Shown piece by piece: positions 24,421 through 61,003 of a stretch of DNA of 64,000 nt; position 1 is the first letter of the stretch, and each line of letters begins with the position of its first letter. Source of the stretch: the human T2T-CHM13v2.0 reference genome, Homo sapiens; assembly GCF_009914755.1 (NCBI RefSeq), contig NC_060929.1; one strand, written 5' to 3'. The position numbers and the translations under genes were made by a program. Under the pieces are notes generated by a model, which was not told where the DNA came from, made no database searches, and worked only from the letters and a program-made list of their open reading frames with translations.

Positions 24421-25323
24421 GCTGGATTCACGTCAGTCCTCCCTCCTCCGTGGTCACTCTTCAGATGGCTTCACATCGGTCCTCCCTGCTCCATGGTCAC
24501 TCTTCAGATGGATTCACGTCAGTCCTCCCTCCTCCGTGGCCACTCTTCAGATGGATTCACGTCAGTCCTCCCTCCTCAGTGGCCACTCTTCACATGGATT
24601 CATGTCGGTCCTCCCTCCTCAGTGGCCACTCTTCAGATGGCTTCATGTCGGTCCTCCCTCCTCCGTGGCCACTCTTCAGATGGCTTCATGTCGGTCCTCC
24701 CTCCTCCGTGGCCACTCTTCAGATGGCTTCACGTCGGTCCTCCCTCCTCAGTGGCCACTCTTCAGATGGCTTCACGTCGGTCCTCCCTCCTCAGTGGCCA
24801 CTCTTCAGATGGCTTCATGTCGGTCCTCCCTCCTCCGTGGCCACTCTTCAGATGGCTTCACGTCGGTCCTCCCTCCTCAGTGGCCACTCTTCAGATGGCT
24901 TCATGTCGGTCCTCCCTCCTCCGTGGCCACTCTTCACATGGATTCATGTCGGTCCTCCCTCCTCCGTGGCCACTCTTCAGATGGCTTCATGTCGGTCCTC
25001 CCTCCTCCGTGGCCACTCTTCAGATGGATTCATGTCGGTTCTCCCTCCTCCGTGGCCACTCTTCAGATGGCTTCATGTCGGTCCTCCCTCCTCCGTGGCC
25101 ACTCTTCAGATGGATTCATGTCGGTCCTCCCTCCTCCGTGGCCACTCTTCAGATGGCTTCATGTCGGTTCTCCCTCCTCCGTGGCCACTCTTCAGATGGC
25201 TTCATGTCGGTTCTCCCTCCTCCGTGGCCACTCTTCAGATGGATTCATGTCGGTTCTCCCTCCTCCGTGGCCACTCTTCAGATGGATTCACGTCGGTCCT
25301 CCCTCCTCTGTGGCCACTCTTCA
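24421..25323. repeat. Minisatellite/VNTR, 21 x 43 bp
   Basis: Unit GATGG(C/A)TTCA(T/C)GTCGGTCCTCCCTCCTCCGTGGCCACTCTTCA; 903 bp = 21 x 43. Confidence 0.97.
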
Positions 25324-26116
25324 GAGACTGGGTCTCTTACTCCTTTCCTCACAGGGCATTTCTAGGCCCCTCACTATCCTATTCAGATCCTTATTTTTGG
25401 AGCCTCTTTGAGTTTGAAGACGGCATTCTGTGTTCTGCCACTGCTAGCTCTCGTGCAAACACCATTTCCTTGATTCTTCATAACCCTGCGAGACAGAGCC
25501 TACCACCCCCATTTTAGAGAGTGTAAGCTGAGGCTGAGGGTCACATGCTATATGTAAATTCCACAGGTGGGATTCAAGCCCAGAACAAACGGACTTAAGA
25601 GCCCCCCACTCCCTCTCACTCTATATTCTCACTCCATCCCTTTGGTTTTCACATTTACCTGCATTTTCTTTCAGGACTTTTGAATCACCTCTCAAAGTTG
25701 AGAAGACAAGGGGCTGAAATCTTCCCCTCAAATGTAGGGGAGTCTCTAAGCTGCTCAGGTACACGTGAGCTCTGGTTACATTTCTGGAAGGACATGGGCA
25801 GGAAACCGAGAGAGATGGGAAAGTGGCTCAGAGAGGACCAGCACTGCTCACACCGAGGAGTGGCTGAGCGTGCAATTTCAGAGGCAGCGCCTACAACGAA
25901 CCAGTCTGGCCCAGTGCAATGGCTCACGCCTGTAATCCCAACACTTTGGGAGGCCAAGGCAGGATGATTACTTGAGCTCAGGAGTTCAAGACCAGCCTGG
26001 GCAACTAGTAAAACCCCATTTCTACTAATTTTTTTTTTAATTAGCTGGGTCTAGAGTGGTGCACACCTGTGGTAATTAGCTGGGTCTGGGGTGGTGCGCA
26101 ACTGTGGTCCCAGCTA

Positions 26117-57523: not shown

Positions 57524-57622
<99 letters not shown>

Positions 57623-57863
57623 TCATCTCAAAAAAAGAAAAAGAAAATTCAGTCTGGACCTGGGTTTGGGGTCAGTGCCTGTTCCCTCCTCCTTCCTAAC
57701 CCTCACCCTTCCTCCTTAGGGCAGATGGGCAGCTCCCATCTTCTCCCCTTCCCCCGTTCCCCAGGACAGCGACCAACACAGGGCGGCAGGGTAGGGCTGG
57801 ACCCCCTCCTCCGCAGAACTGAATTCTGTTGAATACCCAGTGGGCAGATTAAGTTCGGGCTAA

Positions 57864-58076
<213 letters not shown>

Positions 58077-58142
58077 TAATTTTTGTATTTTTAGTACAGA
58101 CGGGGTTTCACCATATTGGACAGGCTGGTCTCGAACTCCTGA

Positions 58143-58416
<274 letters not shown>

Positions 58417-58608
58417 TAGCCAGGATGGTCTCGATCTCCTGACCTCCTGATCCGCCCGCCTCGGCCTCCCAAAGTGCTGGGATTACAGGCGTGAGCCGCC
58501 GCGCCCGGCCTGGAGTTTTCTTTTTTTTTTTAAGCATCACTTCATATTTCAAGAGCTCTCAGTTCTCCTGAGATTTCTAGGCTCTGTCCAGGATCCCTAA
58601 GCCTGTTC

Positions 58609-58802
58609 ACAGTCCTACTTGAAGTTTCTAATCTTTCTTTTCTCATTAACCAAAACTGGAGAGAGGAAAAAGCCCATCATTTTCCCTGGACAGCAGCGCC
58701 TACTGGGAGTTTCACCCGCATTAACATGCAAACGACAGGCAAACTCCTAGTCATCCTTCCAAAGACCCTGCTCCATAGCCCTGCCGAGGCCGGTGCGCAC
58801 CT
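58609..58802. repeat. Left arm of a 194-bp non-TE inverted repeat
   Basis: Reverse complement of 59611-59804 at 192/194 positions by manual comparison (mismatches 58662/59751 and 58789/59624). Confidence 0.97.
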
Positions 58803-59630
58803 AGCCCAGCCACTGCCCCTCACGGCCCCCGCGCCGCCCTCACTGAGCAGGGCGGGCAGCGCTGTAGGCGTAACCACTTGGGGCTTGGGGCTTCTGACCC
58901 GGGAGTCGGGTGCTGGGTTGAGTGCGAGGCCGACGCCTCTGCCGGGTGGGGAACCCGCCCGCCGGCGAGGAGCGGTCGCGGCCAGGGGCTTCCGCCGACT
59001 GGGAGGCCCGGGGCCGGGCCGGAGGGACTCGGAACCTGGAAACGACCAGGCGCGACCCCCCAGAGGACTACAGGCGCGGCTTTTCTGGCCGCCGCCCGGT
59101 TCCCGCGGGCGACTCCACTCGGCATGCGCGGCGGGGAGCCTCGGCGGTGAGGCGCAAAGCCGCGGGCTCGTGGGACGGCCACCCCTCCGCAAAACCGCCA
59201 ATGGGCGGGCCCGGGCCGCCGATCGCCCGCCGCGGCTTCCGGTTCCGATGACAGTGGCGCCGGAAGCCGGGGCCGGGGCTGCGGGGCGAGGTGAGAGCGG
59301 GCGGGCTTGGGAGCCGGCAGGTGCGGGCCGAGGGCGGGCACAGCGGCCGGCGGAGCTGAGGCGCGCGGCGGGGAAAGCTCGGCCGGCCTCCCGGGCCCCA
59401 GCCTTCTCCAGAACCCCTGCTACCCACGACTAAGCCCCGAACAATCTGCCCTTGGGCTTGTTCTCTTCGCAGTTGTCGGCCCTGGGCCGGGAGCTGGAGT
59501 CCCAGACTCATAGGTCCCGGCCCAGCCCCCGAAGAGCCGCCTCAGCCGGGGGGAGTTGCTCGGACTCAAACGTCCAGTCCTCGTGCGACCGCGCTGGGTC
59601 GGAAGTGAGCAGGTGCGCACCGGGCTCGGC
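58780..59630 (+). promoter_or_regulatory. RMND5B: CpG-island promoter with non-coding exon 1 (ends 59290) and exon 2 (59473-59612), most likely RMND5B
   Basis: CpG island with CCAAT near 59197, a GC box and inverted ETS cores (CTTCCGG 59236, CCGGAAG 59260). Donor GAG|gtgaga at 59291, acceptor ttctcttcgcag| before 59473, donor CAG|gtgcgc at 59613. The gene name comes from the known order N4BP3-RMND5B-NHP2; no coding exon is in the window. Confidence 0.78.
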
Positions 59631-59804
59631 AGGGCTATGGAGCAGGGTCTTTGGAAGGATGACTAGGAGTTTGCCTGTCGTTTGCATGTTAATGCGGGTG
59701 AAACTCCCAGTAGGCGCTGCTGTCCAGGGAAAATGATGGGCTTTTTCCTCCCTCCAGTTTTGGTTAATGAGAAAAGAAAGATTAGAAACTTCAAGTAGGA
59801 CTGT
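59611..59804. repeat. Right arm of a 194-bp non-TE inverted repeat
   Basis: Reverse complement of 58609-58802; begins at the exon-2 donor AG|GTGCGC. Confidence 0.97.
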
Positions 59805-60339
59805 ATAGTAAAAAAAAAAAAAAAATGGAGGAGGGCGATATGACACGGTAACTGGTGTGAGGGTGGGGCGGAGGGGTCAGTATTAGATACTGTGGTCTAG
59901 CAGAGCATCTCTGAGGACGGGACATTTGCGTTGAGACCCAAATTAGGAGGCAGGCTTAGGAAGATACGGGAAGAGAGTGGTCCAGGCAGCGGGAACAGCC
60001 AGTGTGAAGGCCCTAGGGCAGAAATCAACTGAGAGTATAGTCAAGGAACAGAAAGCAAGCTAGTGTGGCTAAAGTATGGTAAGAAAGGGAAAGAGTGGTA
60101 GGAGATGAGGTCGGATAATTGGGGTTTGGTCACATAGAGTCTGTAGGTCAGAGAGAGGAATGTTGAGTTTTTTCTAAGTACAGTGGAAATCTTTTGGTTT
60201 TAAGCAGAGGAGTGACATGTAGGGTAGAGAGTGGATGGAGGTCGCGGCTGCAAAAGCATAAGAATTGGCTGGGCACGGTGGTTCACGCCCGTAATTCCAG
60301 CACTTTGGGAGGCTGAGACTGGCAGACGGCTTGAGCTCA

Positions 60340-60805
<466 letters not shown>

Positions 60806-61003
60806 TCAGGAGTGTTCATGGTGGGACTACATGGTGCACCTGTAGTCCCAGCTTCTTGGGGTGGGGGGCTGAGGTGGGAGGATCACTTGAGCCCAGGAGG
60901 TCGAGGCTGCAGTGAGCCCTGATTGTACCACAGCACTCTGGCCTGGGAAACAGATTGAGACCCTGTCTCTCTCTTTTTTATTTTTTTATTTTTTTATTTT
61001 TAA

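What the first reader, a model, noticed from the sequence alone, without database searches (positions are those of the whole stretch)
58609..59804. 194-bp, 99%-identical inverted repeat brackets the RMND5B promoter and 5' exons: candidate invertible promoter cassette
Seen: 58609-58802 and 59611-59804 are reverse complements at 192/194 with no indels, and I do not recognise them as a TE. The 808-bp spacer holds the CpG-island core, exon 1 and exon 2. Each arm's inner end carries the palindrome GGTGCGCACC. Established: near-identical inverted repeats mediate recurrent inversion and are homogenised by gene conversion. Inference: the promoter module could flip, like a bacterial inverton, or the arms are co-evolving. 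The identity is far higher than in the two other local inverted duplications here (~85-90%), so it is either very recent or actively maintained.
Basis: partly seen in the sequence, partly recalled or inferred. Interest (0 to 1): 0.82.

Follow-up and report, generated by a model that had tools for sequence, protein, structure and literature searches.

The report
Inverted duplication flanking the RMND5B promoter
A real, near-identical 194-base inverted repeat brackets the human RMND5B promoter, but it looks like the scar of a single old patch-type insertion rather than a promoter switch.

Summary
Arms 58609-58802 and 59611-59804 are reverse complements at 192/194 with no indels. They enclose an 808-bp CpG-island spacer holding RMND5B exons 1-2. 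The arm sequence occurs only twice in the 3.1-Gb assembly, so it is not a transposon family.

New finding: the 55 bp directly outside the left arm (58554-58608) are a 53/55 copy of unique DNA 82 kb downstream, inside the PHYKPL span. That copy abuts the arm to the base. Its donor begins with AGCCC, the same five bases that follow the left arm at 58803-58807.

I therefore read 58554-58802 as one composite templated insertion. It joins 55 bp from +82 kb to an inverted copy of the start of RMND5B intron 2. The left arm is the copy and the right arm is the source.

The arms (2/194) are not significantly more alike than the co-inserted 55-bp piece is to its donor (2/55; Fisher p=0.21). So I see no sign of active homogenisation. 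Estimated age is about 5-16 Myr, with wide limits.

Flipping of the spacer could not be tested, because only one haplotype is available. The 194-bp arms are shorter than any repeat behind a validated NAHR inversion in the 45-inversion set of PMC6748972. The result is ordinary in kind, though a tidy example.

The parts
58554..58608 (+). Fragment 1 of the composite insertion. It is a 55-bp copy (53/55) of G000:C5:178762425-178762479 (window-equivalent 140425-140479, inside the PHYKPL span), in the same orientation as its donor.
   Evidence: reciprocal whole-genome hits, 96%, the only other copy; alignment; blastn-short (58558-58608, 50/51); mismatches at 58557 and 58577.
58554..58558 (+). AGCTC, the left copy of the 5-nt junction homology. 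The donor of fragment 1 has AGCCC here.
   Evidence: junction J1.
58609..58802 (-). Left arm, which is fragment 2 of the composite insertion. It is an inverted copy of the last 2 nt of RMND5B exon 2 plus the first 192 nt of intron 2, and I infer it to be the derived copy.
   Evidence: It abuts fragment 1 with no gap or overlap (J2).
58803..58807 (+). AGCCC immediately right of the insertion. It is identical to the first 5 nt of the fragment-1 donor (L003:1001-1005). I read it as the microhomology used for the first template switch, or as a 5-nt target duplication.
58803..59610 (+). The 808-bp spacer: CpG-island promoter, RMND5B exon 1 (59250-59290), intron 1 and almost all of exon 2 (59473-59612).
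   Evidence: Composition; sequence; exon coordinates from the hub table.
59611..59804 (+). Right arm, inferred to be the source copy. It starts 2 nt before the exon 2 / intron 2 boundary (CAG|GTGCGC) and ends 5-6 nt before an A16 tract.
58792..58801 (.). GGTGCGCACC palindrome at the inner end of the left arm; part of the copied unit.
59612..59621 (.). GGTGCGCACC palindrome at the inner end of the right arm. It contains the exon 2 splice donor (G|GT).
58532..58553 (+). A 22-nt unique sequence left of the insertion, taken to be original target DNA.
   Evidence: one exact match in the genome (itself). Two 2-mismatch matches elsewhere, against 1 in the reversed-pattern control.

Best explanation
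The inverted repeat is the by-product of one composite templated insertion about 445 bp upstream of the RMND5B start site. A break or stalled 3' end lay at the upstream edge of the CpG island, between ...TTTCAAG and AGCCC.... Its repair copied two nearby templates in succession. The first was about 50-55 nt from a unique site 82 kb downstream in the PHYKPL span, entered through the 5-nt match AGCCC. The second, after a blunt switch, was 192-194 nt of the start of RMND5B intron 2, read backwards towards exon 2. Synthesis or joining then returned to the target at AGCCC. Because the second template lies 808 bp to the right and was copied in reverse, a 194-bp inverted repeat now brackets the promoter and exons 1-2. 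The left arm is the copy and the right arm, which carries the working exon 2 splice donor, is the source. The arms are 99% alike because the event is fairly young, not because they are kept alike. Shown here: the anatomy, the uniqueness of both donors, the exact abutment, the 5-nt junction match and the equal divergence. Inferred: the direction of copying, that it was a single event, and the repair mechanism. The template could have been DNA (replicative template switching of the FoSTeS/MMBIR kind) or nascent intron RNA (a class-2 templated-sequence-insertion kind of cDNA patch); I cannot decide between them. I expect no regulatory function. The only likely consequence is a weak substrate for rare homologous inversion.
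For: (1) The arm has only 2 copies in 3.1 Gb, so this is a local duplication and not a repeat family. (2) The 55 bp abutting the left arm have a single other copy, 82 kb away, at 96% (reciprocal). In a sensitive scan of 254 kb around the locus it was the strongest match apart from the query itself and the arm pair; the other listed matches were Alu ends and A/T runs, though part of that output was cut and so not seen. (3) The two homology blocks meet at 58608|58609 with no gap or overlap, and each donor continues differently past that point (J2). (4) The donor of the 55-bp piece starts with AGCCC. Those are the same 5 nt that follow the far end of the left arm at 58803-58807. This link spans both fragments, so it makes sense only if they went in together; the chance of 5/5 at a fixed position is about 1 in 1000. 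(5) Divergence is 2/194 between arms and 2/55 (or 1/50) for the co-inserted piece, Fisher p=0.21 (or 0.50). (6) Both donors lie in cis within 82 kb, as expected when templates are nearby in three-dimensional space (abstract of PMC7954356, seen in the listing). (7) The insert has no poly(A) next to it and does not sit at a TTTT/A site, and two of its three junctions are blunt. This fits the class-2 templated insertions in the passages of PMC5110952 that I read, which list intronic sequences among templates. (8) The right arm supplies the annotated exon 2 donor (with the hub table), which argues that it is the original.
Against: No outgroup or second human haplotype was available, so the empty site (...TTTCAAG|AGCCC...) is predicted and not observed. 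Only 1 of 3 junctions shows microhomology, and its left copy now reads AGCTC (4/5). So the 5-nt match could instead be a short target duplication, or chance. The donor/copy polarity rests on parsimony. The copy boundary within 2 nt of a splice site and inside a 10-nt palindrome is not explained by a plain DNA template-switch model. With 2 to 4 substitutions in total, the test for excess arm identity has little power.
Confidence: 0.72

Rival explanations
1. Flip-flop promoter. Homologous recombination between the arms recurrently inverts the 808-bp promoter/exon 1-2 module in the germline or soma, turning RMND5B transcription away from the gene body. This is compatible with the origin given above; the question here is whether it happens and whether it matters.
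For: The geometry is right: 99% inverted arms bracket the CpG-island promoter and both 5' exons. Inverted repeats are recurrent inversion hotspots in humans (PMC6748972, passages). Both arms carry the same AG|GT donor at their inner ends, so an inverted module would still meet a donor.
Against: No second orientation was seen or could be looked for. The 24 NAHR inversions of PMC6748972 had repeats of 654 bp to 24.2 kb. These arms are 194 bp with a longest perfect tract of 126 bp. They also fall below the 200-bp floor of the genome-wide map of recombination-prone repeats (PMC11794170). Humans have no known dedicated invertase (established knowledge). Searches for RMND5B with 'inverted repeat' (1 paper) and with 'inversion' (5 papers) found nothing that, by title and abstract, concerns this locus. 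In this assembly the module has the orientation that the RefSeq mRNA needs.
Confidence: 0.07
2. Concerted evolution. The duplication is much older than it looks, and the arms are kept near-identical by gene conversion or by template switching between the arms.
For: The arms (1.0% apart) are nominally closer than the 55-bp piece is to its donor (3.6%). Template switching at imperfect inverted repeats is reported to make them perfect (PMC8755829, passages).
Against: The difference is not significant (p=0.21; p=0.50 if the junction base is left out). The two arm mismatches persist, one of them 13 nt from the inner end. Homology ends sharply with no decayed extension on any side, as expected of a young copy.
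Confidence: 0.07
3. Footprint of an old inversion made by staggered breaks. On this reading the 808-bp module itself was inverted, and the staggered segment was duplicated in inverted orientation at both ends.
For: Inverted duplications flanking an inverted segment are the expected product of that model (recalled from work on Drosophila inversions; not read here).
Against: It does not explain the 55-bp piece from 82 kb away, or the AGCCC match that spans both fragments. It would also require the CpG-island promoter and exons 1-2 to have pointed away from the gene before the event.
Confidence: 0.04
4. Transposable element with long terminal inverted repeats, or an assembly artefact.
For: None beyond the inverted-repeat shape.
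Against: There are only 2 copies of the arm in the genome. There is no duplication of the outer flanks...CCTGTTC on the left against ATAGTA... on the right. The interior is a CpG island with annotated exons. A fold-back read artefact would not give an 808-bp unique spacer, two arm mismatches and a foreign 55-bp piece. The whole unit (1.2 kb) is far shorter than the reads behind a telomere-to-telomere assembly (established knowledge).
Confidence: 0.02

Closest known systems
Class-2 templated sequence insertions (TSI/TSIP; review PMC5110952, passages read)
   Same: A short patch copied from an intact donor elsewhere. It has no poly(A) tail and no L1 target motif, it has blunt or microhomology junctions, and its donors are intronic or intergenic.
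   Different: Here two fragments are joined in one patch, and both donors lie in cis within 82 kb. The experimental TSIs in that review came from many chromosomes. An RNA origin is not shown here.
Replicative template switching (FoSTeS/MMBIR; short-range template switches of PMC5453318 and PMC7954356, seen as search listings and abstracts only)
   Same: Serial copying from nearby templates, creation of an inverted copy de novo, and microhomology at an entry point.
   Different: The inverted copy (194 nt, 808 bp from its source) and the 82-kb jump exceed the short-range events those papers model. Two of the three junctions have no microhomology.
Human inversions mediated by inverted repeats through NAHR (PMC6748972, passages; PMC3961182, listing only)
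   Same: Highly identical inverted repeats bracket a unique segment.
   Different: The arms are more than 3-fold shorter than the shortest repeat in that set (654 bp), and no second orientation is known.
Bacterial invertons (promoter flipping by Hin/Fim-type recombinases; recalled, not read here)
   Same: Inverted repeats bracket a promoter.
   Different: There is no site-specific recombinase. The arms are about ten times longer than typical inverton repeats and arose as a duplication of intron sequence. No orientation variation has been observed.

Membership tests
Templated insertion (template switch or repair patch) | The inserted segment has an intact donor copy elsewhere. | tested here: met
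   Both fragments have exactly one other copy in the genome, each continuous with its own flanks.
Templated insertion (template switch or repair patch) | Several fragments are joined at sharp junctions at one site. | tested here: met
   The 55-bp and 194-bp blocks abut at 58608|58609 with no gap or overlap.
Templated insertion (template switch or repair patch) | Microhomology at the junctions. | tested here: inconclusive
   One of 3 junctions has a 5-nt match (donor AGCCC equals target 58803-58807; the composite now reads AGCTC). The other two junctions are blunt.
Templated insertion (template switch or repair patch) | An empty site exists in an ancestral or outgroup allele. | not testable with these tools
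   No primate or second human assembly is held. Contig scans for stray copies gave 0 hits.
L1-mediated (class-1) templated insertion or retrocopy | Poly(A) tail at the insert's 3' end, target-site duplication of at least 5 bp, and insertion at TTTT/A (criteria from PMC5110952). | tested here: not met
   No A or T run touches the insert. The T run at 58515-58531 is separated from it by 22 nt of unique sequence. The only flanking repeat is the imperfect AGCTC/AGCCC pair.
Transposon with terminal inverted repeats | Multiple copies in the genome. | tested here: not met
   The arm has 2 copies only, which are the two arms themselves.
Transposon with terminal inverted repeats | Target-site duplication outside the two arms. 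| tested here: not met
   The outer flanks are unrelated (outward extension, J2).
NAHR inversion substrate | Inverted repeats of the length and identity seen at validated inversions. | tested here: not met
   Identity is 99%, but length is 194 bp, against 654 bp to 24.2 kb in PMC6748972 and a 200-bp floor in PMC11794170. The longest perfect tract is 126 bp.
NAHR inversion substrate | Both orientations are found among haplotypes. | not testable with these tools
   Only one assembly is available.
Inverton (site-specific invertible promoter) | Inverted repeats bracket a promoter. | tested here: met
   with the hub's exon table.
Inverton (site-specific invertible promoter) | A dedicated recombinase acts on the repeats, and both orientations are present. 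| not tested
   No such enzyme is known in humans (established knowledge). Orientation variation could not be examined.

The most novel reading that the evidence does not exclude
The patch was copied from nascent intron RNA rather than DNA. A broken 3' end primed on PHYKPL-strand intronic RNA through AGCCC, then jumped to RMND5B intron 2 RNA. It ran off at the physical 5' end of the excised intron, or at the lariat branch. That would explain three things: why the copy stops within 2 nt of intron position +1, why both fragments are antisense to their host genes on the growing strand, and why both templates come from genes transcribed close by. If so, this is a fixed germline example of transcript-templated break repair, and it happened to build a promoter-bracketing inverted repeat able to invert rarely.
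Probability: 0.25. Interest if true: 0.55.

Novelty: new member of a known kind. Interest (0 to 1): 0.3.

Why it matters
It shows how a near-perfect inverted repeat around a human promoter can arise in one step from a two-piece templated insertion. It also gives an internal control, the co-inserted fragment, for separating 'young' from 'homogenised'. If the RNA-templated reading or rare inversion were confirmed, the locus would be a compact natural test case for transcript-templated repair, or for the lower size limit of repeat-mediated inversion in humans. As it stands it is most likely a neutral structural scar.

Tried and rejected
1. Transposon identity: rejected, because the arm has only 2 copies in the genome.

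2. Known RNA family in the arms or spacer: none at E<=1. All 16 matches are Alu/SRP-type and lie outside the arms and spacer.

3. Classical L1 retrocopy: on the minus strand the order is arm, 55-bp piece, 22 nt, then an A run. I rejected this because the 22-mer is unique in the genome, no A run touches the insert, and no target duplication flanks that larger unit.

4. Spliced-RNA origin of the 55-bp/22-nt junction: the donor has no GT at the point where homology ends, so I dropped it.

5. The 55-bp donor as a PHYKPL coding exon: no long open frame there, and no PF00202 match. The nearest matches on that strand are at C5:178765556-178765714 and 178772661-178772858. The donor is probably intronic, but exon status was not determined.

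6. Further small templated pieces from the 254-kb neighbourhood: none seen beyond the two fragments. That output was dominated by poly(A) and Alu-end hits, and part of it was cut.

7. Independent copies of the locus as stray DNA in public viral or prokaryotic contig collections: 0 hits each.

9. Literature on this locus: 1 paper holds RMND5B with 'inverted repeat' and 5 hold it with 'inversion'. None concerns this promoter, judged from titles and abstracts. The supplement of PMC8755829 was an unreadable PDF. Inversion catalogues in supplements of long-read studies were not seen and could bear on the orientation question.

Full report
**Observation.** The repeat is as described. The repeat finder lists arms 58609-58802 and 59611-59804: 194 nt, 99% complementary, 808 nt apart. 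A base-by-base comparison gives 192/194 with no gaps. The mismatches are at 58662/59751 and 58789/59624, and there is no residual similarity beyond any of the four ends. GGTGCGCACC occurs twice in the window, at the inner end of each arm, against 0.02 expected. Because it is a palindrome inside the duplicated unit, the second copy needs no separate explanation. The spacer is a CpG island (74% G+C, CpG obs/exp 0.88), while the arms are ordinary DNA (50% G+C, 0.53-0.54). The annotated exons 59250-59290 and 59473-59612 have canonical splice sites. The right arm begins 2 nt before the exon 2 donor, CAG|GTGCGC.

**Not a repeat family.** Searching the whole 3.1-Gb assembly with the arm returns only the two arms. 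The same holds for longer queries across the locus. In one search the other 21 of 23 matches all fall at window 59905-60201, an old dispersed repeat outside the arm.

Rfam finds nothing in the arms or spacer. Its 16 matches at E<=1 are SRP/Alu and Alu-derived miRNA models at 57551-58509 and 60268-60970.

In 254 kb around the locus, 3 inverted pairs of at least 80 bp reach 95% identity. One is this pair. The other two both involve the segment at about 83694-83798 (outside the window), which matches several dispersed copies and looks like a young Alu. So this pair is the only non-Alu one.

**The new fact.** The whole-genome search with 58530-59900 gave one unexpected hit. Window 58554-58608, the 55 bp directly outside the left arm, match C5:178762425-178762479 at 96% in the same orientation. 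That site is 82 kb downstream (window-equivalent 140425-140479), inside the PHYKPL span given by the hub. The reverse search from that locus finds only itself and the window copy, so this is also a two-copy sequence.

The alignment and junction print-out show three things:
- The 55-bp block ends exactly where the arm begins (58608|58609), and each donor continues differently past that point.
- The 55-bp donor begins with AGCCC. The composite reads AGCTC there (58554-58558), and the five bases immediately after the far end of the left arm (58803-58807) are AGCCC.
- The other two junctions have no microhomology.

The 22 nt to the left (58532-58553) are unique in the genome and are taken as original target DNA.

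**Interpretation of the anatomy.** Two unrelated two-copy fragments abut to the base. A 5-nt match ties the start of the first fragment's donor to the target on the far side of the second fragment. Both facts are what one composite insertion would leave, and two independent events would be very unlikely to produce them. The insertion runs from 58554 (or 58559) to 58802.

This fixes the polarity. The left arm is the copy. The right arm is the source, continuous with exon 2 and supplying its working donor.

The process belongs to the known class of templated insertions. A 3' end near the upstream edge of the CpG island paired through AGCCC with the distant site and copied about 50 nt. It then switched without homology to the start of intron 2 and copied 192-194 nt backwards towards exon 2. 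Finally it was rejoined to the target.

The insert has no adjoining poly(A), no TTTT/A site and only an imperfect 5-nt flank repeat. It therefore fails the class-1 (L1-mediated) criteria and fits the class-2 description in the passages of PMC5110952 that I read. Both donors lie in cis within 82 kb. That fits replicative template switching to templates that are close in three-dimensional space (abstract of PMC7954356, listing).

**DNA or RNA template?** I cannot decide. Four points favour RNA:
- With the growth direction set by the AGCCC junction, both fragments are antisense to their host genes. RMND5B is on the plus strand. PHYKPL is on the minus strand, confirmed by minus-strand PF00202 exon matches.
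- The last-copied fragment stops within 2 nt of intron position +1, as a run-off on an excised intron would.
- Intron RNA stays near its gene, which would account for the cis bias.
- Intronic sequences are listed among the templates of such insertions (PMC5110952).

Three points weigh against RNA, or are neutral:
- The 2 extra bases (AG) are exonic.
- HNRNPAB, a plus-strand gene, ends about 1 kb upstream of the 55-bp donor, so read-through RNA of the opposite sense is possible.
- All these coincidences were noticed after the fact.

The donor of the 55-bp piece shows no long open frame and no aminotransferase-domain match. It is probably intronic, though I did not have the exon table for that gene.

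**Age and 'maintenance'.** The arms differ at 2/194 sites. The co-inserted fragment differs from its donor at 2/55, or 1/50 if the junction pentamer is left out. The Fisher tests give p=0.21 and p=0.50.

So the arms are not demonstrably more alike than a fragment that cannot be homogenised by an inverted partner 808 bp away. Age alone explains the identity.

Pooled divergence is 1.2-1.6%. That gives point estimates of about 6-16 Myr, depending on the rate used (0.5 or 1 x 10^-9 per site per year). The Poisson limits run from about 1 to 41 Myr. From general knowledge, this is the order of human-chimpanzee to human-gorilla divergence. The insertion is therefore probably shared by African apes and fixed in humans. 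This is a prediction, not an observation.

**Can it flip?** This could not be tested, because only one haplotype is held. Pattern scans of the viral and prokaryotic contig collections for stray copies found nothing.

Several points argue against frequent flipping:
- The 24 NAHR inversions in the 45-inversion study had repeats of 654 bp to 24.2 kb (PMC6748972, passages).
- A genome-wide map of recombination-prone repeats used a 200-bp floor, which this pair just misses (PMC11794170).
- The longest uninterrupted identity here is 126 bp.

An inverted allele would point the promoter and exons 1-2 away from the gene, so it would be a promoter-loss allele. The copied donor on the minus strand of the left arm means such a transcript, or an ordinary upstream antisense transcript, would meet a splice donor about 445 nt from the start site. 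Whether that donor is used is unknown.

Searches for RMND5B with 'inverted repeat' (1 paper) and with 'inversion' (5 papers) returned nothing that, by title and abstract, concerns this promoter. Catalogues in supplements of long-read inversion studies were not seen.

**Verdict.** The feature is real and unusual in form: the only non-Alu, near-identical inverted pair in 254 kb. Its origin is ordinary in kind. It is a single two-fragment templated insertion of ape age, with no evidence for a switch or for concerted evolution. I file it as a new member of a known kind, with modest interest. The open points are whether the template was RNA and whether rare inversion occurs.

Noticed in passing
window 24423-25325: A minisatellite-like tandem array of about 900 bp. 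Self-alignments shifted by 43, 86 and 172 bp are about 95% identical.
   Followed up: no
window 57881-58531: Two minus-strand Alus in tandem (about 57905-58206 and 58211-58510). The same 10-nt flank, GGAGTTTTCT, is present three times, before, between and after them (family D11). This suggests successive Alu insertions into the same T-rich target. The right-hand one looks like a young (Y-type) Alu by eye; that subfamily label is recalled, not tested.
   Followed up: partly
window 59805-59826: The source arm ends 5-6 nt before an A16 tract (ATAGT/A16). This could matter if the copy was primed on RNA, but the copy at the left site carries neither the ATAGT nor the A run.
   Followed up: partly
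window 59905-60201: An old dispersed repeat just downstream of the right arm. It accounts for 21 matches at 69-90% identity on many chromosomes. It looks MIR-like by eye (recalled). It is not part of the inverted repeat.
   Followed up: no
window 58806 (hub annotation): The RefSeq 'silencer' feature 58806-59396 starts 4 nt after the end of the left arm. This may be coincidence, or an effect of how the tested fragment was mapped next to a duplicated sequence.
   Followed up: no
outside the window: window-equivalent 83693-83781 and 84537-84625 (L008): An 89-bp inverted pair at 98.9% with a 755-bp gap, near NHP2. The segment also matches several dispersed copies at 96-97%, so it is probably a pair of young Alu fragments.
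   Followed up: no
G000:C23:47.56-47.86 Mb and 51.90-52.03 Mb: Clusters of aminotransferase class-III (PF00202) matches with in-frame stops on contig C23. They turned up while mapping PHYKPL exons and look like a family of processed pseudogene copies in inverted and direct arrangement.
   Followed up: no
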